DNA of 25,191 bases from a virus. Taxonomy: Duplodnaviria; Heunggongvirae; Uroviricota; Caudoviricetes. Shown here piece by piece: positions 1,135 through 24,257 of this stretch. A program made the position numbers and the translations under genes. The stretch spans positions 1 to 25,191 of IMG/VR virus record IMGVR_UViG_2778261276_000008. One strand, written 5' to 3'. Position 1 is the stretch's first letter. Every line of letters begins with the position of its first letter. A model generated the notes under the pieces. That model saw nothing but the letters and a program-made list of their open reading frames with translations. It was not told where the DNA came from and made no database searches.

Positions 1135-2109
1135 TCACTTTTTGGTAATGCTGTCATCATTTGCTGCTGATTTTTTATCTACAAGTGTACCTAGAATGTT
1201 AAATAAATTTGGAGGTGGCTGCATTTTATCTGCGAATGCAGAATTAGCAGACATGTTCCAATCTTTAAACACATCAATAGCATCTTGTTTTGTCGCAGTT
1301 GAACCATAAATTTGTAAGAAGACTTCACCAAACATTAGAGCATGTTGTCTGTCTTTTCTTATGATTGCTTCATGTGTGTATTTTTTTGAATTGTTTAAAC
1401 AAAAATAAGAAAGCCAAGAAAGTAATGCAACCCCAAGCAAGCCTCTAGTGAAATAATAAAAAAGTTCAATGGGGGTAGTATCTTTTATATCTATTTTATA
1501 AAAAAATGTTAAAAAGGCGGCACTTATAGATAATAATGAAAATAGTATTCCGGCTATCGCCCAATTGTAAGACATTGCAGTGAAATCTTTATCATCCTGC
1601 TGTAGTTTTTCTTTGACGCCCTGCACATATTTAGGAACTTTTTCGTCAATTTTATTTTGTTGGATTTTGCTTGAAAGTTCTTGGTTTTGAAGCTTTAGCT
1701 CATTGTTTTTGGCGTGTTGGAAATCTAGCTGTGATGCTAGTTTTTTTTTACTTTCCATTTCATTTAATAATTTTTCATTCAACTTTTCCATTTGCTCTGA
1801 ATGAGAGTTATGGATTTTTTGCAATTCACGCACTTTATGCTCTAATTTAGTGATTTTTGAAATGTAATCATCTATCTCACTATTTTTTAAGGATGTGCGT
1901 TCGGGGTTAATGTGCTCACAATTATATTTTTTAGAAAAATATTTACTGTAAACATCAAAAAGCACATCGAATTCATTAAACTTTAAAGAATTCAATAGTT
2001 TTTTCAAATCATTATAGACACTATCGGATAAATATGATTTTAATTCCTCTAGTTTAATGATTCTAGAGATATATTCTTCACTATTATCTTTCCAATTGGA
2101 ACCGGCCAT
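1135..2109 (-). CDS. Hypothetical protein, 324 aa: coiled-coil N-terminal region plus two predicted transmembrane helices (cargo gene)
   Basis: Long ORF, visibly AT-rich compared with flanks. SD-like GAGGA about 7 nt upstream of ATG. Lys/Glu/Leu-rich heptad-like region around aa 80-170. Hydrophobic helices at about aa 183-204 and 224-238. Lies 12 bp downstream of the cI-like gene on the same strand. Confidence 0.6.
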   Translation of the reverse strand: MAGSNWKDNSEEYISRIIKLEELKSYLSDSVYNDLKKLLNSLKFNEFDVLFDVYSKYFSKKYNCEHINPERTSLKNSEIDDYISKITKLEHKVRELQKIHNSHSEQMEKLNEKLLNEMESKKKLASQLDFQHAKNNELKLQNQELSSKIQQNKIDEKVPKYVQGVKEKLQQDDKDFTAMSYNWAIAGILFSLLSISAAFLTFFYKIDIKDTTPIELFYYFTRGLLGVALLSWLSYFCLNNSKKYTHEAIIRKDRQHALMFGEVFLQIYGSTATKQDAIDVFKDWNMSANSAFADKMQPPPNLFNILGTLVDKKSAANDDSITKK

Positions 2110-2121
2110 TCCAATATCCTC

Positions 2122-3066
2122 TTATAATTCTTCTATAAGCAAAAATTTGCATTTAGCAATAACATCAATGTCTGAAATATTACATTCAAACGATAAATAA
2201 TTGTCTGAGATTTTTAATCTTCCTACAGGTATCCTAGTTAGGGTTCGAATACTCACTTTTCCTTCTATTTCAACAATCCATTTACCATCTGTAATTTCAT
2301 CAAATGACTGATCACATAGGTATGTTTTTTTTGGGGTACTGACAATCAGTGGTAATTGGATTGAGTCTGGTATTAATGCTTTATCAAGCATATAGAAATC
2401 TGACTCAAATAGATTCCCATCAGTGATTTTTTTGCGTGTAATAGCAATTACATCATTTCTTGCATCGTCAAACTTTGGGCCTTTACCAGTAGTTAGCCAC
2501 GTTAGTGAAGTACCCGTTTCTAGAGCGCACTTAATTATCCAGTCTGAAGGAAAGACATCACGCATATATCTTGTGGCTAATGTGCTTTTTGAAATACCTA
2601 AGTGATCAGCTAAGGCTTGGCGCGTCTTATAACCGTAAGCCTTAACAATTCGTTCTATTGCTTCCTTGCCACCTCGAGAAAAATCAACGGAGTTTTCATT
2701 GTCGAACTTTTGTTGTTTATAGTGAACATCATGATAAGAACCATCTTCGGAGTGTGTTTCAACATGTTGTTCTGGTGAAGGGGATGGCATTTGCTCGTCA
2801 TCATCTGAACCAAATGCTAGCCATTTAATTGATGCTCCTGTTTCCATTGAGCAGATAACTACCCAATCTGCAGGAAATGTATCGCGGGCATATCTGTTAG
2901 CCATCGTGCTTTGGGAAATACCTAGATGGTTACAGAATGCCTGGCGTGACTTGAAGCCATAAGCCATGAGTATCCGCTCAATTACTTTCTGACCACCGCG
3001 ATTCTGTATGACAACGGCTTTCATATCGTCATTCATATGGCGAAATGTGAATTTTTGAGTTGACAT
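2122..3066 (-). CDS. cI: CI-like immunity repressor with tandemly duplicated 186-CI-type HTH domain, 314 aa
   Basis: Two internal repeats (about aa 14-86 and 117-195) share a GG..IERI..AYG(F/Y)K.RQA...HLGIS.ST.A.RY.RD.FP.DW...C..ETG.S..WL..G pattern, resembling the N-terminal DNA-binding domain of coliphage 186 CI as I recall it. Divergent from the apl-like gene, as in 186. Confidence 0.75.
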   Translation of the reverse strand: MSTQKFTFRHMNDDMKAVVIQNRGGQKVIERILMAYGFKSRQAFCNHLGISQSTMANRYARDTFPADWVVICSMETGASIKWLAFGSDDDEQMPSPSPEQHVETHSEDGSYHDVHYKQQKFDNENSVDFSRGGKEAIERIVKAYGYKTRQALADHLGISKSTLATRYMRDVFPSDWIIKCALETGTSLTWLTTGKGPKFDDARNDVIAITRKKITDGNLFESDFYMLDKALIPDSIQLPLIVSTPKKTYLCDQSFDEITDGKWIVEIEGKVSIRTLTRIPVGRLKISDNYLSFECNISDIDVIAKCKFLLIEEL

Positions 3067-4431: not shown

Positions 4432-4498
4432 CCAACTAATGAAATTCATGGCGTAAACCCGCCGGGCATCCCTTTATCTAAATTAAGGAGAATTTATT

Positions 4499-4732
4499 AT
4501 GCGTAATATTGAAACCCTCAAGACTAAGACCGGACCGGATGACGCAGGGCTTAATATTTTACTGACAGAGGCTCGTCTGGAAGAACGCCGGGCAAGGGCT
4601 GAAGCAATGGCAGCTCGCCTTGATAGTCTGGCGTGTCATATTACATCCCGCCAGCTAAACCACGTCGAAGCGGCAGAACTGCTGCGTGTGACTGCTGAAG
4701 CAATCCAGAACGAAGCGCAGGAGATCCACTAA
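4499..4732 (+). CDS. Hypothetical early protein, 77 aa
   Basis: Strong SD (AAGGAG) 7 nt upstream. Stop overlaps the next start (TAATG). Confidence 0.55.
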   Translation: MRNIETLKTKTGPDDAGLNILLTEARLEERRARAEAMAARLDSLACHITSRQLNHVEAAELLRVTAEAIQNEAQEIH

Positions 4733-5813: not shown

Positions 5814-8224
5814 GTCATGACGATATGAGCAACTCTAGCGGCTTTAACGAGGCCGCTGCATCATTTTCATGGAACGGCCCGAAAAAGGCCATTAACCCTT
5901 ATCTGGACCCGGCGGAATTTGCGCCGGAGTCTGCACTTTCAAACCTGATCACTCTGTATGCTGCCGATAACGAGCAGGAACAACTGCGCCGCGAGGCACT
6001 GAGTGAGCAGGTCTGGGAGCGTTATTTCTTTAATGAATCCCGTGATCCTGTCCAGCGCGAAATGGAGCAGGATAAGCTCATTAGCCGCGCAAAGCTTGCG
6101 CATGAGCAGCAGCTTTTTAACCCGGACATGGTCATTCTGGCAGATGTCAGCGCCCAGCCTACCCACATCAGCAAGCCGCTGATGCAACGTATCGAATACT
6201 TCAGCAGCCTGGGCAGGCCAAAGGCTTATTCCCGCTATTTGCGTGAGACGATTAAGCCATGTCTGGAGCGACTGGATTGTGTACGCGACAGTCAGCTATC
6301 CGCTTCTTTCCGTTTTATGGCAAGCCATCAAGGGCTTGAGGGCCTGCTGATCCTGCCTGAAATGAGTCAGGATCAGGTAAAACGCCTGTCCACCCTGGTA
6401 GCTGCGCATATGAGCATGTGCCTTGATGCCGCTTGTGGCGATTTATATGCCACCGATGACGTTAAGCCAGAAGAAATCCGCAAGACATGGGAAAAGGTGG
6501 CAGCGGAAACCCTGCGACTGGATGTTATCCCGCCTGCGTTTGAGCAACTCCGCCGGAAAAGAAACCGCCGCAAACCCGTGCCCTATGAACTCATACCGGG
6601 TTCGCTGGCACGTATGCTTTGCGCCGACTGGTGGTATCGAAAATTGTGGAAGATGCGTTGCGAATGGCGGGAAGAGCAGTTGCGTGCTGTCTGCCTGGTC
6701 AGCAAAAAAGCATCTCCCTATGTCAGCTATGAAGCCGTGACGCATAAACGTGAGCAGCGCCGTAAGTCGCTGGAGTTTTTCCGTTCTCATGAACTGGTGA
6801 ACGAAGACGGCGACACGCTGGATATGGAAGATGTGGTAAACGCCAGCAGCAGCAACCCGGCACATCGCCGCAATGAGATGATGGCCTGTGTTAAAGGTCT
6901 GGAGCTTATCGCAGAAATGCGTGGTGACTGCGCCGTTTTCTACACTATCACCTGTCCGTCACGTTTCCATTCCACGCTCAACAACGGCAGACCCAACCCG
7001 ACCTGGACAAATGCGACGGTAAGACAAAGCAGCGATTATCTGGTCGGCATGTTTGCTGCATTTCGTAAGGCTATGCACAAAGCCGGGTTGCGCTGGTATG
7101 GCGTGCGGGTGGCTGAGCCGCACCATGACGGTACTGTGCACTGGCATCTCATGTGTTTCATGCGCAAAAAAGACCGCCGCGCCATTACTGCATTGTTGCG
7201 TAAGTTTGCCATCCGTGAAGACCGCGAGGAACTGGGTAATAACACAGGTCCACGCTTTAAATCTGAGCTGATAAACCCACGCAAAGGAACACCGACAAGC
7301 TACATCGCGAAATACATCAGTAAGAACATTGACGGGCGTGGTCTGGCTGGCGAGATCAGCAAGGAAACGGGTAAATCCCTGCGTGATAATGCTGAATACG
7401 TTAATGCCTGGGCGTCTCTGCATCGTGTTCAGCAATTCCGCTTCTTTGGCATTCCGGGGCGTCAGGCTTACCGTGAACTGCGATTGCTGGCTGGTCAGGC
7501 GGCAAGGCAACAGGGGGACAAAAAAGCAGGTGCGCCGGTACTGGATAACCCGCGCCTTGATGCCATCCTGGCTGCTGCTGATGCTGGTTGTTTTGCCACC
7601 TACATCATGAAGCAGGGCGGCGTACTGGTTCCCCGCAAATATCACCTTATCAGAACAGCTTATGAAATTAACGAAGAGCCGACTGCTTATGGCGATCACG
7701 GTATTCGTATTTATGGCATCTGGTCACCCATTGTACAGGGCAAGATTTGCACTCATGCAGTGAAGTGGAAAATGGTTCGTAAGGCCGTTGACGTTCAGGA
7801 GGCGGCAGCCGACCAGGGCGCTTGCGCCCCTTGGACTCGTGGCAATAACTGTCCCCTTGCTGAAAATTTGAACCAACAAGGGAAAGACAAATCAGCTGAT
7901 GGGGACTCCAGAACGGATATTACCCGTATGAATGACAAGGAGTTGCACGATTACCTGCACAGTATGAGCAAAAAAGAGCGCCGGGAACTGGCTGCAAGGT
8001 TACGCCAGGTGAAACCGAAACGGCGTAAAGACTACAAACAGCGAATTACAGACCATCAGCGACAGCAGCTCGTCTATGAACTGAAGTCCAGGGGATTTGA
8101 TGGCAGCGAGAAAGAAGTCGATTTGCTCCTTCGCGGCGGCAGTATTCCGTCAGGAGCAGGCCTGCGTATCTTCTATCGGAACCAGCGTCTGAAGGAAGAT
8201 GATAAGTGGCGGAACCTGTATTAA
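5810..8224 (+). CDS. A: Replication initiation endonuclease (P2 gpA family, rolling-circle HUH), 804 aa
   Basis: HUH-like HWHLMCF motif and YIAKYISK catalytic tyrosine motif. Size and position match P2/186 gene A. Confidence 0.9.
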
Positions 8225-8318: not shown

Positions 8319-8334
8319 CTGTAAATATAAACAG
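8319..8334. promoter_or_regulatory. LexA box (CTGTAAATATAAACAG) in the promoter of the tum-like operon
   Basis: Exact CTGT-N8-ACAG with an AT-rich spacer, 43 bp upstream of the ATG at 8377 and overlapping -10-like hexamers. Position is equivalent to the 186 SOS promoter p95. Confidence 0.6.
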
Positions 8335-8376: not shown

Positions 8377-8565
8377 ATGCAGGACTATTTTTTGGAGTCT
8401 TTGAAGCTCCAGCGCATTGATTTTTTTCTTAAGCTTGTAGCGGCTAGTGAGTGTAGTGATGAAGAGAAGGGGCTGGCTCTGCAGTGGGTTTCTGAATTGA
8501 CTGATGAACTCATGGCAAAAATCAGAAGCCACGAATACAACCGCTCAATGGATGTCATCAGCTGA
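8377..8565 (+). CDS. Small protein, 62 aa, first gene of the LexA-controlled operon
   Basis: AGGAGG SD 5 nt upstream. Immediately followed by the DinI-like gene. Confidence 0.5.
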   Translation: MQDYFLESLKLQRIDFFLKLVAASECSDEEKGLALQWVSELTDELMAKIRSHEYNRSMDVIS

Positions 8566-8575
8566 GGTGACTTTT

Positions 8576-8809
8576 ATGCGCATTGAAATAATGATCGATA
8601 AAGAGCAGAAGATTAGCCAGTCTACCCTGGACGCACTTGAATCCGAGCTTTACCGCAATCTGCGCCCCCTGTATCCCAAAACGGTAATTCGCATTCGCAA
8701 AGGTAGCTCTAACGGTGTGGAACTAACCGGACTGCAACTGGATGAAGAAAGAAAACAAGTGATGAAAATTATGCAGAAGGTGTGGGAGGACGACAGCTGG
8801 CTGCATTAA
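8576..8809 (+). CDS. DinI-family protein (186 Tum-like SOS antirepressor module), 77 aa
   Basis: Sequence MRIEIMIDKEQKISQ...LYRNL...IRIRKGSSNGVELTG...VMKIMQKVWEDDSWL resembles E. coli DinI (MRIEVTIAKT... ending in the W-rich acidic tail). GAGGTG SD 5 nt upstream of the ATG. Confidence 0.7.
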   Translation: MRIEIMIDKEQKISQSTLDALESELYRNLRPLYPKTVIRIRKGSSNGVELTGLQLDEERKQVMKIMQKVWEDDSWLH

Positions 8810-9811: not shown

Positions 9812-11551
9812 ATGGAATTGCACGCATATACTAGAACCATATCAGAATTACTTTCGGTTAATAGAAAATATGTTGTCCCAAGATTTCAGCGAGAATATTC
9901 TTGGGTAAAAGAACAAATTAATGAGCTTTGGTATGATGTAATATCTAATATCAAATTAGAGAATGATTTCACATATTCTAATAATGAGTATTTTATTGGT
10001 TCTTTAGTTTTAGTTGGAGATGAAACAGGAAGGGAAATGCAAATAGTTGATGGTCAGCAACGACTTACAACTCTTACGATTTTTCTTTCCGTTTTATGTG
10101 AGGCGTTCAAGCTAAACAATCAATCAGATTTAGCATCTGCTCTATTTGAAAATTATATTGAAGGTCGTGATGATGATGGTAAGAAATTTTTTAAGCTAAT
10201 AAATGAAACACCTAAGCCTTTTTTTCAGAAAAATATCCAACACCTTAATAAGGCAGATGACGCACCCCAGACACAAGAGGAGCGAAATCTCTTGTCTGCA
10301 TATAAGGAAATTACATCGTTAGCCTCAAAGGAAAAATTGGGAAAGTATTTTTCAGTCGAAATTAATACTGAAGATAATTATTCCAGTGTATTAAAAGCAA
10401 TTAGGGATCAGATTTTAAGATTTCTTAAGATAATTTTTATTACTGTTAATGAAGAGGACGAGGCGTATACAATATTTGAAACATTAAATGCGAGAGGGAT
10501 GAATTTAAGTTTTGTAGATCTAATTAAAAATAAATTATTTAAAGCGTTAAACAACCCTCATCCAAATGATGATGCAAAAGATAATTGGAAGGCTATACGT
10601 ACTACTTTAATGCAAAGAAATGGTGTAGGGACTTTTGAAAATTTCATGAGGCACTGGTGGGTGTCGAAGTATGCTTACGTAAGCAATGAAAATCTTTATA
10701 AGTCCTTTATTGGAAAATGGCGTAAGGGGGAAATTAATCCGGTAACCTTTATTGAAGAATTGAAACAGGATGCCGAATTGTATGTACGCTTGTCATCTCC
10801 TTTGGAGAGTGATTATCCACAAATGGAAGATAAACAGATATTCCATTCGTTGAATGCAATTAGGCTATTTGGTATAACGCAGTGTAGACCTTTTTTATTA
10901 GCTTTACTAAAGGCAAAACAGCAAAGGAGATTGCGTCAATGTGATCTTTTAAAAGCAGTTAAATATATTGAAAATTTTCATTTTGTATTTAATGCGATAT
11001 GTTCATTAAGGCCGTCAGGGATAGAAGGTGCATATTCTAAGGCCGCAAGAGCAATAAATTCACCAAATGCTACAAAAGTAACTAATGGTACAACAATTGA
11101 ACAGTTATGCTTGTTGTTGAGTAACCGCAAGCCAGAAATTTCTGTATTCACTGAAAATTTCAGAGATATATTATTTACTGATGACAACTCCAAGCAAAAA
11201 AGATTGGTCCAATATATTATAAATAAATTTGAAATGGCCCGTCATAATGGAGATGAGTATCGTCCTAATTCTATTTCTTTAGAGCATATAATGCCTCAAA
11301 GTGCTGGCAACGATAAGGAAATAGGAATGATTGGAAATATAATCCCTCTGTCAAAAGAACTTAATGAGCAAGCTGGTAATAAATCATTGGCACAAAAGCT
11401 CTCTATCTATTCACAATCGGAGTTTAGATTGACGGAAGAGTTTATTAGTGAACTTGAAACCATTTACCATAATGAATGGAATCTCCAGTCTATTATTCAG
11501 AAGACAGATAGAATGGCTGGTGAGGCTTATATGAATATTTGGAGTCATTAA
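9812..11551 (+). CDS. DUF262/DUF1524 (GmrSD-like) putative type IV restriction / anti-phage nuclease, 579 aa
   Basis: N-terminal DUF262 hallmarks (RFQREYSW at about aa 23-31, DGQQRLTTL at aa 80-88). C-terminal His-Me-finger-like SLEHIMPQS (His about 492) followed by Asn residues. AT-rich single gene. Confidence 0.75.
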   Translation: MELHAYTRTISELLSVNRKYVVPRFQREYSWVKEQINELWYDVISNIKLENDFTYSNNEYFIGSLVLVGDETGREMQIVDGQQRLTTLTIFLSVLCEAFKLNNQSDLASALFENYIEGRDDDGKKFFKLINETPKPFFQKNIQHLNKADDAPQTQEERNLLSAYKEITSLASKEKLGKYFSVEINTEDNYSSVLKAIRDQILRFLKIIFITVNEEDEAYTIFETLNARGMNLSFVDLIKNKLFKALNNPHPNDDAKDNWKAIRTTLMQRNGVGTFENFMRHWWVSKYAYVSNENLYKSFIGKWRKGEINPVTFIEELKQDAELYVRLSSPLESDYPQMEDKQIFHSLNAIRLFGITQCRPFLLALLKAKQQRRLRQCDLLKAVKYIENFHFVFNAICSLRPSGIEGAYSKAARAINSPNATKVTNGTTIEQLCLLLSNRKPEISVFTENFRDILFTDDNSKQKRLVQYIINKFEMARHNGDEYRPNSISLEHIMPQSAGNDKEIGMIGNIIPLSKELNEQAGNKSLAQKLSIYSQSEFRLTEEFISELETIYHNEWNLQSIIQKTDRMAGEAYMNIWSH

Positions 11552-19374: not shown

Positions 19375-19507
19375 CGGTGACCTGAACGCGTTGCTGGATG
19401 AAACGGAGGCCGCCTGGGCGGTCTGTGCAGACAAAGTGGACATGATTATTGCGTGTCAGGAGCGAAACAGTGAACAAACCACAATCCCTGCGCCACGCCC
19501 TCAATAA
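19217..19507 (+). CDS. lysC: o-spanin lipoprotein (LysC / Rz1-like), begins inside lysB in another frame
   Basis: Signal peptide with lipobox LTLSGC (Cys21) and a Pro-rich mature region. GTG start. Overlaps the lysB 3' half. Confidence 0.6.
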   Translation: MRTRIYAAGLILLCLLTLSGCGNAPHSPEVQLTVSGCPRVTPCRLGQAAPRTNGDLNALLDETEAAWAVCADKVDMIIACQERNSEQTTIPAPRPQ

Positions 19508-19901
19508 AGCGGTGCCTTATGTCCGCAATAACCCGGACAAACTGCATCTGTTTGTGGATAACGGTTCGCTGGTTGCCACGGGGGCCAGCTCCATGTCATG
19601 GGAGTACCGCTATACCCTGAACGTGGTGATAGAGGATTTCAGCGGCGACCAGAATCTGCTGATGGCCCCGGTTTTACTGTGGCTTCGGGATAACCAGCCC
19701 GATGCCATCAATAACCCGGCGTTACGGGAAAAGCTATTCACCTTTGAGGTGGATATTTTGCGCAACGATGTCTGTGATATCAGCCTTAACCTGCAACTGA
19801 CGGAACGTGTGCTGGTCAGTACTGACGGCAGTGTGTCGAGCGTTGAAGCTGTAGCAGAACCCGATGAACCTGAAGAAATGTGGACGGTGAAACGTGGCTG
19901 A
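19470..19901 (+). CDS. R: Tail completion protein R (P2 gpR family)
   Basis: GTG at 19470 has an AGGAG SD 8 nt upstream. Sequence pattern LR.AL...V......P..L..FVDNGS resembles gpR as I recall it. Confidence 0.7.
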   Translation: MNKPQSLRHALNKAVPYVRNNPDKLHLFVDNGSLVATGASSMSWEYRYTLNVVIEDFSGDQNLLMAPVLLWLRDNQPDAINNPALREKLFTFEVDILRNDVCDISLNLQLTERVLVSTDGSVSSVEAVAEPDEPEEMWTVKRG

Positions 19902-20340
19902 ACTGCAGAAGGTGGACGACTGGCTGAGTGCCTTGCTGGCGAATCTGGAACCAGCCACGAGAAGCCGCATGATGCGCCAGCTGGCGCAGGAACTGCGCCG
20001 GACACAGCAGCAGAATATCAGGATGCAGCGCAATCCAGATGGCAGCAGTTATGAACCGCGCAGGGTAACAGCACGCAGCAAAAAAGGCCGCATCAAACGT
20101 CAGATGTTTGCAAAGCTGCGCACCACAAAATACCTGAAAACTGCCGCCAGCGCCGACTCTGCCAGCGTACAGTTTGAAGGCAAGGTGCAGCGTATTGCCC
20201 GTGTTCACCATTACGGCCTGCGCGATCGTGTCAGTCGCAAAGGACCGGAAGTGCGTTATGCAGAGCGGCGGTTGCTTGGTATCAATAACAAGATGCAGTC
20301 TGTCATTGGAGATATATTGCATCAGTGGCTGTTTAAATGA
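19894..20340 (+). CDS. S: Tail completion / virion morphogenesis protein S (P2 gpS family), 148 aa
   Basis: Position after R with overlapping start. Size matches P2 gpS (about 150 aa). Confidence 0.7.
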   Translation: MAELQKVDDWLSALLANLEPATRSRMMRQLAQELRRTQQQNIRMQRNPDGSSYEPRRVTARSKKGRIKRQMFAKLRTTKYLKTAASADSASVQFEGKVQRIARVHHYGLRDRVSRKGPEVRYAERRLLGINNKMQSVIGDILHQWLFK

Positions 20341-20384: not shown

Positions 20385-21200
20385 TCATATTTTTAATTTT
20401 TTATGGATATGCTCCATCCCTAAATTAGATATCTCTTTTTTTAGCTGGGTTTCACTTGCAGTTATCCAGTTTTTTCCACAGTTTGGTAGAAGCATCTCGC
20501 TACTTGACGGATTGATAAGTTTTACTTTTTCATTCTTTATAATTTTGTTTTTCAAATAACTTTTACTTATTAAGGCTGATTTTTCAGTTATAACGAGATA
20601 AAAAAATATGCTTCCAAAAAATATACCTTTTAAAATAATACCGCTGCGTAACAGAACAGGGTCATTTTTGGTTATTCTCATTTTAAAGGGAGAGCAAAGG
20701 TTGTCTTCACTTGTAGGTATATTAAGTTCGCTTTTTTGCTCGTCAGTAAGTTTAAGAGGCATGAGCAGTCCAGCGAAGAGCATGACATCTTTTTCTGAAG
20801 GCAAAGGTTCTCCGCGGAGAATATAATCTTTATATGCGCCAAAAATATGTGTGGATGGATCATTGACCGCGCTTGCCGAGTTGTAAGAAATTTTCATTAA
20901 CCAGCGTAGCAATAAATGATAATCATAAGTTATAGTCGTTTGTGTCTTTAGATAAAGTTGGGTTAAGAAACCGTTTCTGGCTAAAAACTGACTTCCATAA
21001 TCATCTAAAAAACTTAATGCTCCACCATTGCATGTTTTACAAACATCGGCAATTGTTGCCTCACCACCAATTATATCATTTGCTCTCTCGTTCCAGCCTA
21101 TAAAACGATCTCCAGATTCTTTTTGATATTTATATATAAATTTAGGGATAATATGTTCTCTTTCTATTATTCCATCTTGCTCGCAATATCTGCAGTGCAT
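20385..21200 (-). CDS. HNH-motif nuclease-domain protein with uncharacterised C-terminal domain, 271 aa (cargo at the S-V locus)
   Basis: N-terminal 60 aa carry C3-x2-C6 ... E15-H16-IIPK ... N37/N41 ... C54-x2-C57-N58, the spacing of HNH/His-Me finger nucleases. Gene is AT-rich, on the opposite strand to the late genes, with GGAG SD 8 nt upstream. Confidence 0.6.
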   Translation of the reverse strand: MHCRYCEQDGIIEREHIIPKFIYKYQKESGDRFIGWNERANDIIGGEATIADVCKTCNGGALSFLDDYGSQFLARNGFLTQLYLKTQTTITYDYHLLLRWLMKISYNSASAVNDPSTHIFGAYKDYILRGEPLPSEKDVMLFAGLLMPLKLTDEQKSELNIPTSEDNLCSPFKMRITKNDPVLLRSGIILKGIFFGSIFFYLVITEKSALISKSYLKNKIIKNEKVKLINPSSSEMLLPNCGKNWITASETQLKKEISNLGMEHIHKKLKI

Positions 21201-21307: not shown

Positions 21308-21826
21308 ATGAACGCACAATTAACCGAAATCATGCGCCTTATCACCAACCTGATCCGCACTGGGGTAGTCACCGAAGTGGACAGGGAAAACTGGCTTTGC
21401 CGAGTGAAAACGGGCGACCTTGAAACTAACTGGATCAGTTGGCTGACGCTGCGTGCAGGAAATGCCCGGACATGGTGGCGACCATCGGAAGGTGAGCAGG
21501 TGGTGCTGCTGAGTCTGGGCGGTAATCTGGAAACCGCGTTTGCCCTGCCTGCGGTCTACTCAAACCAGTTTCCGCCACCTTCAGGCTCTGAGGACGGCAA
21601 CGTGACGGAATACCCGGACGGCGGCTGGTTTGAATACGAACCCGCCACCGGGCGCTGGTATGTCAGGGGCATCAAATCAATGGTCATTGAGGCCGCTGAC
21701 AATATCACCCTGAAAACCAGTGAGTTTGTGCTGGAGGCTGACCGCACGCGTATTAACAGCGAAGTGGTGATCAATGGTGGCGTTACCCACATTCCGTTTT
21801 GCCGCTTCTCCCAAACCAACGTTTAA
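21308..21826 (+). CDS. V: Baseplate spike/assembly protein V (P2 gpV family), 172 aa, probably C-terminally truncated
   Basis: N-terminus MNAQLTEIMRLITNLIRTGVVTEVD resembles P2 gpV. Shorter than P2 gpV (about 211 aa). No W, J, I, H, G, FI, FII, E, T, U genes follow. Confidence 0.75.
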   Translation: MNAQLTEIMRLITNLIRTGVVTEVDRENWLCRVKTGDLETNWISWLTLRAGNARTWWRPSEGEQVVLLSLGGNLETAFALPAVYSNQFPPPSGSEDGNVTEYPDGGWFEYEPATGRWYVRGIKSMVIEAADNITLKTSEFVLEADRTRINSEVVINGGVTHIPFCRFSQTNV

Positions 21827-22027
21827 GAAAATGCAGAGGTAACAGCTAACTGGCATCATCTCCGGTTTTTATTCAGGGGAATGCCAGTGAAAGTCAGTGG
21901 TTTTAAACAGCCGATAGATGATGCGGAATGGACCATTACGACTCTGACACATACCGTCAGCCCGGATAACGGTTTTATGACCAGTCTGGAGCTTGAAGTG
22001 AGGATTGATGATTTCGAAATGGAATGA
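21827..22027 (+). pseudogene. D: Remnant of the 3' end of tail gene D, in frame with V after its stop codon
   Basis: Open frame ending ...MPVKVSGFKQPIDDAEWTITTLTHTVSPDNGFMTSLELEVRIDDFEME, located immediately upstream of ogr where gene D ends in P2. Resemblance to the gpD C-terminus is from memory only. Confidence 0.45.
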
Positions 22028-22117
22028 TTCTTCGCAATGGAGAACTTTTAAGTTTGCAAAATGGAATAATGAGGTATCATTATTGTGAATTTAGCAAAAA
22101 TGGGGAGAACTCGAAAA

Positions 22118-22336
22118 ATGATGATTTGCCCACTGTGTGGAAGTGCCGCCCATACTCGCAGCAGTTTTCAGGTATCTTCATTGACCAAAGAGCGTTACAA
22201 CCAGTGCCAGAACATTAACTGCAGCCATACTTTTGTTACCCATGAAACTTTTGTTCGTTCGATTGCAACGCCAAAAGAGTCAAATCCGGTTCAGCCGCAT
22301 CCAATGAAATCAGGACAGGTGGCGCTCTCTCTTTGA
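22118..22336 (+). CDS. ogr: Ogr/Delta-family zinc-finger late transcription activator, 72 aa
   Basis: CPLCGSAAHTRSS...KERYNQCQNINCSHTF matches the P2 Ogr CxxC...CxxxxC zinc-finger pattern. Last phage gene before the att repeat. Confidence 0.85.
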   Translation: MMICPLCGSAAHTRSSFQVSSLTKERYNQCQNINCSHTFVTHETFVRSIATPKESNPVQPHPMKSGQVALSL

Positions 22337-22359: not shown

Positions 22360-22422
22360 CGTTAAAAAACAGTGCTTATAACATCATGATTTTAAAAGGC
22401 ATAAATTTCAGGCAACAAAAAA

Positions 22423-22459
22423 CCCATCAACCTTGAACCGAAATGGCGGGGTTGATGGG
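22423..22459 (-). terminator. Intrinsic-terminator-like hairpin downstream of ybjL
   Basis: 10-bp stem CCCATCAACC / GGTTGATGGG followed by TTTTTTG on the minus strand. Confidence 0.4.
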
Positions 22460-22571: not shown

Positions 22572-24257
22572 TTATCCTAATCCTGGCCATACCATGACGA
22601 TGATTGTCCCTGCCAGCGTCAGCAGGACGTTGGCGATTGCATAGGTGCCCGCATAGCCCAGCGCCGGGATGTTACTGCGAGCTGTATCACTGATGATCTC
22701 CATTGCCGGCGCGCAGGTACGTGCGCCCATCATTGCGCCGAACAACAGCGCGCGGTTCATTCGCAATACATAAGCACCGAACAAGAAACAGATAACCACG
22801 GGCACCAGACTGACAATCAATCCGGCAATCAACATCTGACCGCCAATCGCGCCCAGGCCGTTATTAATACCGCTACCGGCGCTCAGACCAACGCCTGCCA
22901 TAAACACCATCAAGCCGAACTCTTTCACCATGCTTAATGCACCCTGCGGAATGTAACCGAAGGTCGGGTGGTTAGCACGCATAAAGCCCAGCATAATTCC
23001 GGCGAATAACAACCCGGCAGCGTTCCCCATGCCGAAACTGAATGTGCTGAACTGGAAGGTGATCATCCCGATCATCAGCCCAATAACAAAGAAGGCGCAG
23101 AATGCCAGCAGGTCAGTGACCTGGCTGTGAATCGAGATAAAGCCGATGCGATCGGCGATGGTTTTTACGCGGCGGGCATCGCCGCTGACTTGTAAAACGT
23201 CACCTTTGTTAAGCACGACGTTGTCATCTATCGGCATCTCAATCTGGCTACGAATGACGCGGTTAAGGAAGCAACCGTGATCGGTCAACTTCAGTTGTGC
23301 GAGACGTTTACCTACAGCGTTATGGTTTTTAACGACCACTTCTTCAGTGACGATACGCATGTCGAGAAGGTCACGATCGAAAACTTCTTTACCGTTACGG
23401 AAGCTGGGATCGAGTCGGGCATGGGCGTCGGGATAGCCTACCAACGCTATTTCATCGCCCATTTGTAGCACGGCATCACCGTCTGGATTTGCCAGAATCC
23501 CGTTACGTCGAATACGTTCAATGTAGCAGCCGGTTTGTCGATAAATACCCAGTTCACGCAGATTTTTGCCGTCGGTCCAGGCCACCAGTTCCGGGCCGAC
23601 GCGATAGGCGCGGATCACCGGTAAATAAACCTTACGGTTGGCATCAGTGTCCAGGCCACGTTCGCGGGCGATTTGCTGGGCGCTGGTCTGTAAGTCCTGA
23701 TGCTGCAATTTCGGCAAGTAACGCGCACCAACAATCAAACTCACCAGACCGATTAAATAGGTTAAGGCATACCCGAGGCTCAGATTATCCAGTGCCAGTG
23801 AGAGCTGCCTGCTTTCCATGCCGGAATGACGCAGTGTATCGCCAGCACCGACCAGAACCGGTGTCGACGTCATAGAGCCTGCTAACATACCGGCCGTCAG
23901 GCCAATATCCCAGCCAAACAGCTTACCTAACCCTAAGGCGATCACCAGCGCACTGCCAACCATCACCAGTGCTAACATTAGGTAATTTTTCCCATCGCGA
24001 AAAAAAATGGAAAAAAAGTTCGGTCCGGCTTCGACCCCGACGCAGAAAATAAACAGCATAAAGCCAAGATTAAGCGCATCGGTGTTAATGCTGAAATGTT
24101 GTTGGCCTAATAACAGCGATACGACTAAAACGCCAATGGAATTACCCAGTTGGATCGAACCAAGTCGTAACTTTCCGAGACATAGCCCAAGCGCGAGGAC
24201 CACAAATAATAACAGAATGTAATTCCCATTTAACAATTCGGCGACGTTTATATTCAC
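22572..24257 (-). CDS. ybjL: Putative transport protein YbjL (AAE-type transporter with central RCK_C/TrkA-C domains), 561 aa
   Basis: Multi-TM N- and C-terminal halves with soluble central domains. Sequence and length match E. coli YbjL as I recall it. Neighbours ybjM and grxA as in E. coli. Confidence 0.85.

What the first reader, a model, noticed from the sequence alone, without database searches (positions are those of the whole stretch)
21780..22030. Tail module deleted: V is followed directly by a D remnant and ogr
After gene V (172 aa, shorter than P2 gpV) there are no genes for W, J, I, H, G, sheath, tube, tape measure or U. Instead an in-frame 66-codon stretch ending in a gpD-like C-terminus runs into ogr. 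The prophage therefore keeps its switch, SOS induction, replication, head and lysis genes and all cargo loci but cannot make tails. It is either a decaying prophage retained for its cargo, or an element dependent on a helper for tails.
Basis: partly seen in the sequence, partly recalled or inferred. Interest (0 to 1): 0.6.

Follow-up and report, generated by a model that had tools for sequence, protein, structure and literature searches.

The report
Tail-deleted P2-like prophage, recurrent breakpoint
An otherwise intact P2-like prophage of E. coli has lost its roughly 12-kb tail gene block by ordinary short-homology deletion, but the left break sits at a spot in gene V where at least 17 other independent E. 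coli prophages have also broken.

Summary
The window is an SOS-inducible P2-like (Elveevirus-type) prophage of E. coli inserted next to ybjL. Its integrase, switch, replication, head, lysis, R and S genes are full length compared with Klebsiella phage 4LV2017. W, J, I, H, tfa, FI, FII, E, T and U are absent.

Gene V is not a short V. It is cut at nt 482 of 579 and loses the apex domain. V is not followed directly by D. An 84-bp island (21790-21873) lies between them. It is the outer part of the right inverted repeat of an invertible tail-fibre segment plus the leader of a Gin-like invertase. Only the last 154 nt of D remain, and ogr is intact.

Both junctions carry microhomology. That fits two illegitimate deletions or one double template switch removing about 11.9-12.2 kb. 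The same scar occurs, 100% identical, on about 20 contigs of public assemblies I took to be independent, so it is real and clonal. As such it is an ordinary defective prophage, like the one in E. coli B at the same site.

One thing is unexpected. Eighteen distinct large deletions in E. coli prophages all start at V codons 158-160, at the only Dcm site in V, with different right ends. The cause is unknown.

The parts
21308..21789 (+). Gene V, the first 482 of 579 nt (codons 1-160 and two bases of codon 161). It has the OB-fold domain and part of the beta-helix. The apex domain is missing.
   Evidence: blastn to 4LV2017 V, 21734-22215. Pfam finds PF04717 only, whereas intact homologues also carry PF18946 Apex. 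PDB relatives are 3QR8 and 3QR7.
21308..21826 (+). Chimeric ORF V' of 172 aa: 160 V residues, a junction codon, then 11 codons read from the filler, then a stop.
   Evidence: The exact protein is found on 20 contigs.
21781..21789 (+). Left junction microhomology CGTTACCCA. It is shared by V and by the sequence just inside the right inverted repeat in a Cartapus-type ancestor (only CCCA in the KP12 type).
   Evidence: Three-way registers.
21790..21873 (+). 84-bp island: the outer 42 bp of the right inverted repeat of an invertible tail-fibre segment, plus 42 bp of the leader of the Gin-like invertase gene. The invertase gene itself is gone.
   Evidence: 95-97% identity to Cartapus L002 5996-6098 and to KP12, lying 4-9 bp upstream of the annotated DNA invertase start. 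The Cartapus inverted repeats are 4490-4564 and 5972-6046. The invertase has Resolvase + HTH_7 domains.
21806..21831 (.). Orphan 26-bp hix/gix-like crossover site, TTCTCCCAAACC AA CGTTTAAGAAAA.
   Evidence: It forms the outer end of the right inverted repeat. The resemblance to Hin/Gin/Cin sites is from memory of the consensus and was not tested.
21874..22027 (+). Gene D remnant: the last 154 nt (51 codons including the stop).
   Evidence: 96% identity to 4LV2017 32887-33040. PHROG tail-protein C-terminus match.
21887..22027 (+). 46-codon ORF (GTG start) in the D frame. It now sits behind the invertase leader and Shine-Dalgarno sequence, and the GTG falls exactly where the invertase ATG was. 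Probably junk, possibly expressed.
   Evidence: Called as a gene in public assemblies. Register with the Cartapus invertase start.
22100..22336 (+). ogr, the late-gene activator, intact. The 72-aa core runs from 22118.
   Evidence: 100% identity to 4LV2017 Ogr. Pfam Ogr_Delta, 5e-22. A promoter-like site lies at 22053-22080.
22409..22427 (.). attR core, 19 bp.
   Evidence: Identical to the annotated attL and attR of 4LV2017.
22572..24257 (-). Host gene ybjL. It marks the end of the prophage and identifies the host as E. coli.
   Evidence: >99% identity to E. coli chromosomes, annotated ybjL.
19470..20340 (+). Tail-completion genes R and S, retained and intact. They are now useless remnants of the tail pathway.
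   Evidence: tblastn gives 98.6% identity for R and 91% for S. R is full length (143/143 residues); S aligns over 146 of 148.

Best explanation
This is a recently inactivated P2-like prophage: Elveevirus-type late genes with a 186-type SOS-inducible switch, in E. coli at the ybjL attachment site.

Its ancestor carried an invertible tail-fibre segment with a Gin-like invertase, as phages Cartapus and KP12 do. About 11.9-12.2 kb was lost at two junctions:
1. V nt 482 was joined to a point 16 bp inside the right inverted repeat. This removed the V 3' end, W, J, I, H, the tfa genes and the invertible segment (about 4.5-4.8 kb).
2. The invertase leader, a few bp before its ATG, was joined to the last 154 nt of D. 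This removed the invertase, FI, FII, E, E', T, U and 86% of D (about 7.4 kb).

Both junctions carry short microhomology: CGTTACCCA or CCCA on the left, and an imperfect GG.ATG on the right. The mechanism is therefore RecA-independent illegitimate recombination. It was either two successive deletions or one replication-linked event with two template switches. This step is inferred, and no intermediate was found.

Consequences, also inferred: after SOS induction the element should still excise, replicate, fill heads and lyse the cell. It would release tail-less, non-infectious heads unless another P2-like phage supplies tails.

The left break is not random. It lies in a 9-nt zone, ...TGGTGGCGTTAC|CCAGG, where 18 distinct deletions in E. 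coli P2-like prophages begin. Their right ends are scattered over W, I, H, FI, FII, E, T, D and the invertase leader. All partner sites share short homology to the V-side end. This points to a fixed DNA 3' end at that site, from a nick, a break or a stalled nascent strand, which then anneals downstream. The site is the only Dcm site in V. Its cause is not established.
For: Gene content: one search shows the retained phage genes full length and 10 tail genes absent. Searches show synteny with 4LV2017 at 95% identity.

Junction mapping.

Filler identity.

Host and attachment site.

Reality and clonality of the scar. There are 20-22 contigs with an identical arrangement and 100% identity, and no intermediates.

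Absent from 5,426 complete E. coli genomes.

Ordinary nature of the event. Independent, different tail deletions occur in prophages at the same site in REL606 (invertase nt 240 joined to the last 402 nt of D), P276M (V, a T fragment, then ogr) and PSS-10 (V, W, J', then ogr), and at ssrA in TUM1887 (V joined to D).

Hotspot:
- Searches give 18 distinct fusion junctions at V codons 158-160, against about 3 large-deletion fusions elsewhere in the detectable part of V.
- Ten DNA junctions all end at ...GGCGTTAC(C), and the partner sites share (C)G.TAC.
- CCAGG at V nt 480 is the only CCWGG in V.
- Other strains carry CCAGG>CTAGG, an amber at codon 161.
Against: No intermediate with only one of the two junctions was found. 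One-step and two-step origins therefore cannot be told apart.

The ancestor's exact tail-fibre region is unknown, so deletion sizes are estimates from Cartapus and KP12.

For the hotspot, about 10 non-V deletion junctions in the same set of prophages are not at CCWGG sites. Truncations of the T N-terminus scatter. A Dcm site alone therefore cannot explain the V site. Selection for a V(1-160) product is not formally excluded.

Functional consequences (induction, tail-less heads) were not tested.
Confidence: 0.88

Rival explanations
1. A helper-dependent element, functionally like capsid-forming PICIs. It keeps its own heads, packaging and lysis genes and is maintained because it spreads using tails from a co-resident or superinfecting P2-like phage.
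For: Head, packaging, lysis, excision, replication and ogr genes are all intact. P2-type heads and tails assemble separately (established knowledge), so complementation by a helper is physically plausible.
Against: There is no sign of adaptation. The junctions are microhomology scars that leave a truncated V, a D stub and the useless R, S and X genes. All about 20 copies are identical, so no evolutionary persistence has been shown. Other prophages with the same V break have gone on to lose head and lysis genes. Among 5,426 complete genomes this architecture is absent.
Confidence: 0.06
2. The deletion was made by the Gin-like invertase acting on its crossover site and on pseudo-sites in V and D (site-specific deletion).
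For: A complete 26-bp crossover site survives exactly between the two junctions. This is an odd thing to be spared by chance.
Against: Neither junction lies at the central dinucleotide of the site. The left one is 16 bp outside the site and the right one 42 bp beyond it. The V and D breakpoints do not resemble the site. The other 17 V-hotspot deletions end at many unrelated places.
Confidence: 0.03
3. The recurrence of the V breakpoint reflects selection for a V(1-160) product, for example a dominant-negative spike that blocks baseplate assembly of superinfecting P2-like phages. It would not then be a mutational hotspot.
For: Deletions, one small V-W deletion and an amber mutation all yield V cut at residues 158-160. 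The cut removes exactly the apex domain.
Against: At DNA level the V ends fall within 9 nt, and every partner shares homology with the same ...GTTAC end. That is a mutational signature. The amber is the classical C-to-T change at the inner C of CCAGG. P276M and PSS-10 lost tails while keeping V intact. The truncated copies are rare: 7 of 1,031 V-carrying records lack a match covering at least 80% of the V 3' segment, an upper bound on truncated copies.
Confidence: 0.05
4. Assembly artefact: contigs joined wrongly through the repeated invertase/hix region.
For: The filler sequence is a repeat family present in many prophages and plasmids.
Against: The overlaps at the junctions are only 4-10 bp, far below assembler k-mers. 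The identical structure was recovered in 20-22 contigs of public assemblies from NCBI and Logan, which I took to be independent.
Confidence: 0.01

Closest known systems
Defective P2-like prophage of E. coli B (REL606/BL21) at ybjL
   Same: Same attachment site, same phage type, same moron slot between S and V, and loss of tail genes by illegitimate deletion ending inside D. A D stub, ogr and attR are kept.
   Different: In B the break runs from invertase nt 240 to the last 402 nt of D. V through H and the invertible segment are kept, while head genes N through the lysozyme are lost. In the window, V through U are lost and the heads are intact. One V-hotspot deletion (L011/P0016) is a secondary derivative of the B-type arrangement.
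Cryptic P2 remnant of E. coli K-12 (D fragment yegZ + ogrK + attR). Cited from my own knowledge (Barreiro and Haggard-Ljungquist 1992), not checked here.
   Same: It ends with a C-terminal D fragment, an intact ogr and attR.
   Different: In K-12 only that stub is left. Here 22 kb of otherwise intact prophage remains.
Intact Elveevirus phages: Klebsiella phage 4LV2017, Klebsiella phage KP12, Escherichia phage Cartapus
   Same: Gene order, about 95% nucleotide identity over 67-69% of the window (4LV2017 and KP12), and a cargo slot at the same position between S and V in Cartapus.
   Different: They have the complete V-to-D tail module. Cartapus and KP12 also have the invertible fibre segment plus invertase, of which the window keeps only 84 bp.
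Capsid-forming PICIs (tail-stealing satellites). Cited from my own knowledge (Alqurainy et al. 2023).
   Same: Functional analogy only: the element has its own capsid and packaging genes and no tails.
   Different: Those are a conserved, diverged family with dedicated architecture. This is a fresh deletion scar in a standard phage genome.
5-methylcytosine deamination hotspots at Dcm sites (lacI amber hotspots). Cited from my own knowledge (Coulondre et al. 1978).
   Same: The CCAGG>CTAGG amber at V codon 161 in other strains is exactly this type of change. The deletion hotspot abuts the same site.
   Different: As far as I could find, that literature describes point mutations, not kilobase deletions with one fixed end.

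Membership tests
P2-like (Peduoviridae) prophage | Syntenic int, switch, A, Q-P / O-N-M-L-X, lysis, R-S and ogr genes, plus an att site | tested here: met
   Full-length matches of 91-100% aa identity to 4LV2017 in the same order (57% for the switch repressor CI). Pfam families on the public contigs. attR core.
P2-like (Peduoviridae) prophage | Complete contractile-tail module (V W J I H G FI FII E T U D) | tested here: not met
   No tblastn hit for W, J, I, H, tfa, FI, FII, E, T or U. V and D are partial.
186-type SOS-inducible switch | CI repressor of the Phage_CI_repr/CI_C type, a Cox/Apl gene, and a LexA-controlled Tum-like antirepressor | tested here: met
   Pfam on the CI gene. PHROG Cox-like match. 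A single LexA box at 8319-8334 upstream of a DinI-like ORF. Induction itself was not tested.
Gin/Hin/Cin/Pin invertible tail-fibre switch | A serine invertase gene plus two inverted crossover sites flanking alternative fibre ends | tested here: not met
   Only one site and the invertase leader survive (21790-21873). The gene and the second site are absent. The complete switch is present in Cartapus.
Phage satellite / tail-pirating element | A conserved, diverged lineage whose architecture lacks tail genes by design, with a helper-dependent life cycle | tested here: not met
   All copies are identical and the scar-type junctions carry gene stubs. Not found in 5,426 complete genomes. Helper dependence cannot be tested with these tools.
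Microhomology-mediated (illegitimate) deletion | Short shared sequence at each junction, no long repeats, no IS or recombinase site at the break | tested here: met
   The left junction has a 9-bp (Cartapus type) or 4-bp (KP12 type) overlap and the right junction an imperfect 3-5 bp overlap. The same pattern is seen at nine other V junctions.
Dcm/Vsr-linked lesion at CCWGG | The breakpoint abuts a CCWGG, and C-to-T changes occur at its inner C in relatives | tested here: met
   CCAGG at V nt 480 is the only such site in V. CTAGG amber in L016 and L017.
Dcm/Vsr-linked lesion at CCWGG | Deletion endpoints enriched at CCWGG sites in general; dependence on dcm/vsr | tested here: not met
   About 10 other junctions are not at CCWGG. 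T truncations show at most 1 of 11 at a Dcm site. Genetic dependence on dcm/vsr cannot be tested here.

The most novel reading that the evidence does not exclude
V nt 474-482 (...TGGTGGCGTTAC|CCAGG) is a true site-specific initiation point for kilobase deletions in E. coli P2-like prophages.

On this reading a fixed 3' end is generated there. It could be a Vsr nick at a deaminated 5-methylcytosine, a replication block at the Dcm site, or cleavage by an unidentified nuclease. The end is then rescued by annealing to microhomology 0.4-11 kb downstream, in the direction of fork movement. The result would be that tails of this phage family are disarmed over and over in independent lineages.
Probability: 0.55. 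Interest if true: 0.55.

Novelty: new member of a known kind. Interest (0 to 1): 0.35.

Why it matters
As a single locus it matters little. It is one more defective prophage that keeps its cargo (a GmrSD-like restriction gene and others), and this situation is already described for P2-like elements (PMC13586616).

Two points go beyond that. First, the 84-bp island shows that the ancestor had a fibre-inversion switch, and it gives a clean example of a two-junction microhomology scar. Second, the shared V breakpoint gives a natural, replicated data set of 18 or more independent events with one fixed end and mapped partner sites. That set could be used to study how long deletions start in the E. 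coli chromosome and why prophage decay is not random. The cited survey reported "no obvious pattern" of core-gene loss, so this pattern appears to be undescribed.

Tried and rejected
1. Searched species-representative genomes for the left-junction 30-mer. No hit. This is uninformative, because one genome stands for all E. coli.

2. Looked for the same junctions in 5,426 complete E. coli genomes. None found.

3. Looked for intermediates carrying only one junction, using the exact V' and D' proteins. None found.

4. Hairpin or secondary structure at the V hotspot. Folding of both strands is no better than shuffled sequence, z = +1.1 and +1.5. Rejected.

5. Canonical Chi as the cause of a fixed end. 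There is no GCTGGTGG on either strand in the window or in 4LV2017, only a two-mismatch AATGGTGG. Not supported.

6. A gpA (rolling-circle nickase) pseudo-origin in V. No sequence similar to the hotspot occurs in gene A. The paper giving the P2 nick site is not held. Not supported.

7. An invertase pseudo-site. The junctions are not at the crossover core. Rejected.

8. Generality of Dcm sites as deletion starts. Control junctions and T truncations do not cluster at CCWGG. Rejected as a sufficient cause.

9. Queries with only the N-terminus of T or V returned only short proteins. The search seems to limit hit length, so they could not give an unbiased breakpoint map.

10. Literature searches for a described V hotspot or for Dcm-linked deletions found nothing specific.

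Full report
**What is there**

The window is a P2-like prophage in the E. coli chromosome. Its right end is a 19-bp attR core at 22409-22427. The host gene ybjL follows at 22572-24257 on the minus strand, more than 99% identical to E. coli chromosomes. The closest annotated relatives are Klebsiella phage 4LV2017 and KP12 (about 95% nucleotide identity over 67-69% of the window) and Escherichia phage Cartapus, whose V segment is about 91% identical. 4LV2017 and Cartapus are classified as Elveevirus.

I ran tblastn with every 4LV2017 protein against the window. It gives full-length matches at 91-100% identity for int, CII, Dam, A, Q, P, O, N, M, L, X, holin, endolysin, LysA, LysB, R, S and ogr, and a 57% match for the CI repressor. 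It gives nothing for W, J, I, H, tfa, FI, FII, E, T or U. V matches only over residues 1-161 and D only over residues 315-366.

The switch is of the 186 type:
- a CI repressor with Phage_CI_repr and CI_C domains;
- a Cox-like gene;
- one LexA box (8319-8334) upstream of a DinI/Tum-like ORF.

**Anatomy of the scar**

V homology stops at 21789, which is V nt 482 of 579. D homology resumes at 21874, covering the last 154 nt of D with its stop at 22027.

The 84 bp in between are not random. They match, at 95-97% identity, the sequence just upstream of a DNA invertase gene in Cartapus, KP12 and other P2-like phages. That gene has Resolvase and HTH_7 domains and is annotated as a Gin homologue.

In Cartapus the invertase lies next to an invertible tail-fibre segment bounded by 75-nt inverted repeats at L002 4490-4564 and 5972-6046. 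The window keeps the outer 42 bp of the right repeat, which includes a 26-bp hix/gix-like site at 21806-21831. It also keeps 42 bp of the invertase leader.

The ancestor therefore had the inversion switch, and the scar has two junctions. The left one lies in a CGTTACCCA overlap (Cartapus type) or a CCCA overlap (KP12 type). The right one lies in an imperfect GG.ATG overlap. Measured against Cartapus and KP12, about 4.5-4.8 kb and about 7.4 kb were removed.

Three consequences follow for the coding sequence:
- The '172-aa V' is a chimera: 160 V residues, a junction codon and 11 filler codons. It lacks the apex domain that intact homologues carry.
- The 66-codon open frame is D only in its last 51 codons.
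- A 46-codon GTG-started ORF in the D frame now sits where the invertase start codon used to be.

ogr is intact and has its own promoter-like site.

**Is it real?**

The exact V' protein is encoded on 20 contigs and the D stub on 22 contigs from NCBI and Logan assemblies, which I took to be independent. The neighbouring genes are always the same. Two of these contigs are 100% identical to the window over 13.9 kb and 4.6 kb. The junction overlaps are far too short to mislead an assembler. The scar is therefore real, clonal and recent.

None of 5,426 complete E. coli genomes has either junction. No intermediate with only one junction was found. Two successive deletions and a single event with two template switches therefore remain equally possible.

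**How ordinary is it?**

Prophages of the same type at the same site show other, independent tail deletions:
- REL606/BL21: invertase nt 240 joined to the last 402 nt of D, plus a head deletion.
- P276M: V, then a T fragment, then ogr.
- PSS-10: V, W, a partial J, then ogr.
- TUM1887 (prophage at ssrA): V joined directly to D.

A recent survey already describes defective P2-like prophages that keep conserved defence cargo, and it found 'no obvious pattern' of core-gene loss (PMC13586616). The finding as given is thus a new example of a known thing.

Nothing indicates a helper-adapted element. Gene stubs remain, all copies are identical, and sister prophages with the same V break have lost further modules.

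**The unexpected part**

Searching with V' returned many E. coli proteins that follow intact gpV up to ...EVVINGG(V)(T) and then continue into other sequences. These continuations are D (three different points or frames), E, FII, FI (two points), I, several tail-fibre ends, T, W and others.

Counting distinct junctions gives 18 at codons 158-160, including the window. About three large-deletion fusions lie elsewhere in the part of V where they would have been detected. A handful of frameshifts and internal deletions are scattered. If breakpoints were spread evenly over that part of V, the chance of this clustering is of the order of 1e-16 by my own estimate.

The events are independent. They occur in prophages at different attachment sites, with different cargo and different V alleles.

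I examined ten junctions at DNA level. All ten end the V side within TGGTGGCGTTAC(C)(C)(A). Every partner site shares short, often imperfect, homology with that end, of the form (C)G.TAC(C). This is what a fixed 3' end searching for microhomology downstream would produce.

The site abuts CCAGG at V nt 480-484, the only Dcm site in V. Other strains carry CCAGG>CTAGG there, an amber at codon 161. From established knowledge, that is the classical signature of 5-methylcytosine deamination.

From REL606 coordinates and ssrA orientation I infer that the replication fork moves from V towards D in the two sites I could orient. This matches the one-sided direction of the deletions.

**What the hotspot is not**

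- Not a hairpin.
- Not canonical Chi, which is absent from the whole phage.
- Not a copy of a sequence in gene A.
- Not an invertase site.
- Not a general property of Dcm sites. About ten other junctions in the same prophages, and the truncations of T, do not sit at CCWGG.

The truncated copies are rare. In 7 of 1,031 V-carrying records among complete genomes, the V 3' segment is not covered to at least 80%, which is an upper bound on truncated copies. That argues against strong selection for them.

I therefore commit to a mutational hotspot caused by a site-specific lesion, nick or replication block at or next to the Dcm site. A Vsr nick after deamination is the most concrete candidate, but I give that specific enzyme only about one chance in four.

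**Verdict**

The interpretation 'decaying prophage retained with its cargo' is supported, and 'helper-dependent element' is not. The locus itself is ordinary. The recurrent V breakpoint is the only feature that deserves follow-up.

Noticed in passing
window 21774-21789; loci L005, L011-L015, L018-L021; proteins P0002-P0034: Eighteen distinct deletions in E. coli P2-like prophages all start at V codons 158-160 (...TGGTGGCGTTAC|CCAGG). Their right ends lie in W, I, H, FI, FII, E, T, D or the invertase leader. The cause is unknown.
   Followed up: yes
L016 and L017, position 3481 (V codon 161): CCAGG>CTAGG amber at the only Dcm site of V, in a protein cluster of 71 member sequences. This is the classical 5-methylcytosine deamination change, at the same spot as the deletion hotspot.
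   Followed up: partly
window 9812-11551 (+): A 579-aa GmrSD_N + GmrSD_C protein (PADLOC HEC-06/Orf5, E 1e-92). It is type IV restriction-like cargo in the A-Q hotspot, where 4LV2017 carries a retron St85 system.
   Followed up: partly
window 20385-21200 (-): A 271-aa ORF of unknown function in the moron slot between S and V. It has only a sub-threshold HNH_5 hit. REL606 has a DUF6216 gene and P276M a GmrSD-like gene in the same slot.
   Followed up: partly
window 2122-3066 (-) and 1135-2109 (-): The CI repressor (314 aa) has two Phage_CI_repr stretches plus CI_C and is only 57% identical to its 4LV2017 counterpart, so it is a different immunity type. Next to it lies a 324-aa ORF of unknown function (phrog_2628).
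   Followed up: no
window 8319-8334 and 8377-8809 (+): A single LexA box, CTGTAAATATAAACAG, lies upstream of a 62-aa ORF and a DinI-like 101-aa ORF. This is probably a Tum-type SOS antirepressor.
   Followed up: partly
whole window and L001: There is no canonical Chi site (GCTGGTGG) on either strand in the 25-kb window or in the 33.5-kb phage 4LV2017.
   Followed up: no
L011/L012 4454-4490 and L006 12298-12330: The V-D fusion P0016 (18 contigs) derives from the E. coli B-type defective prophage. Its right end uses a GTTACCC that was itself created by the older invertase|D junction of REL606.
   Followed up: yes
proteins P0136 and P0137 (T codon 83); L013 T gene: The tape-measure gene is broken after codon 83 in two events with different partners. 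The 9-mer GGAGCGATG lies 3 nt to the right of that break and 10 nt to the right of the V hotspot. This may be chance.
   Followed up: no
one search hits, e.g. NZ_CP025141.1 15710-15802: The 93-bp crossover-site and invertase-leader sequence also occurs at 91-97% identity on many large Klebsiella, E. coli and Citrobacter plasmids, within annotated hypothetical or tail-protein genes.
   Followed up: no
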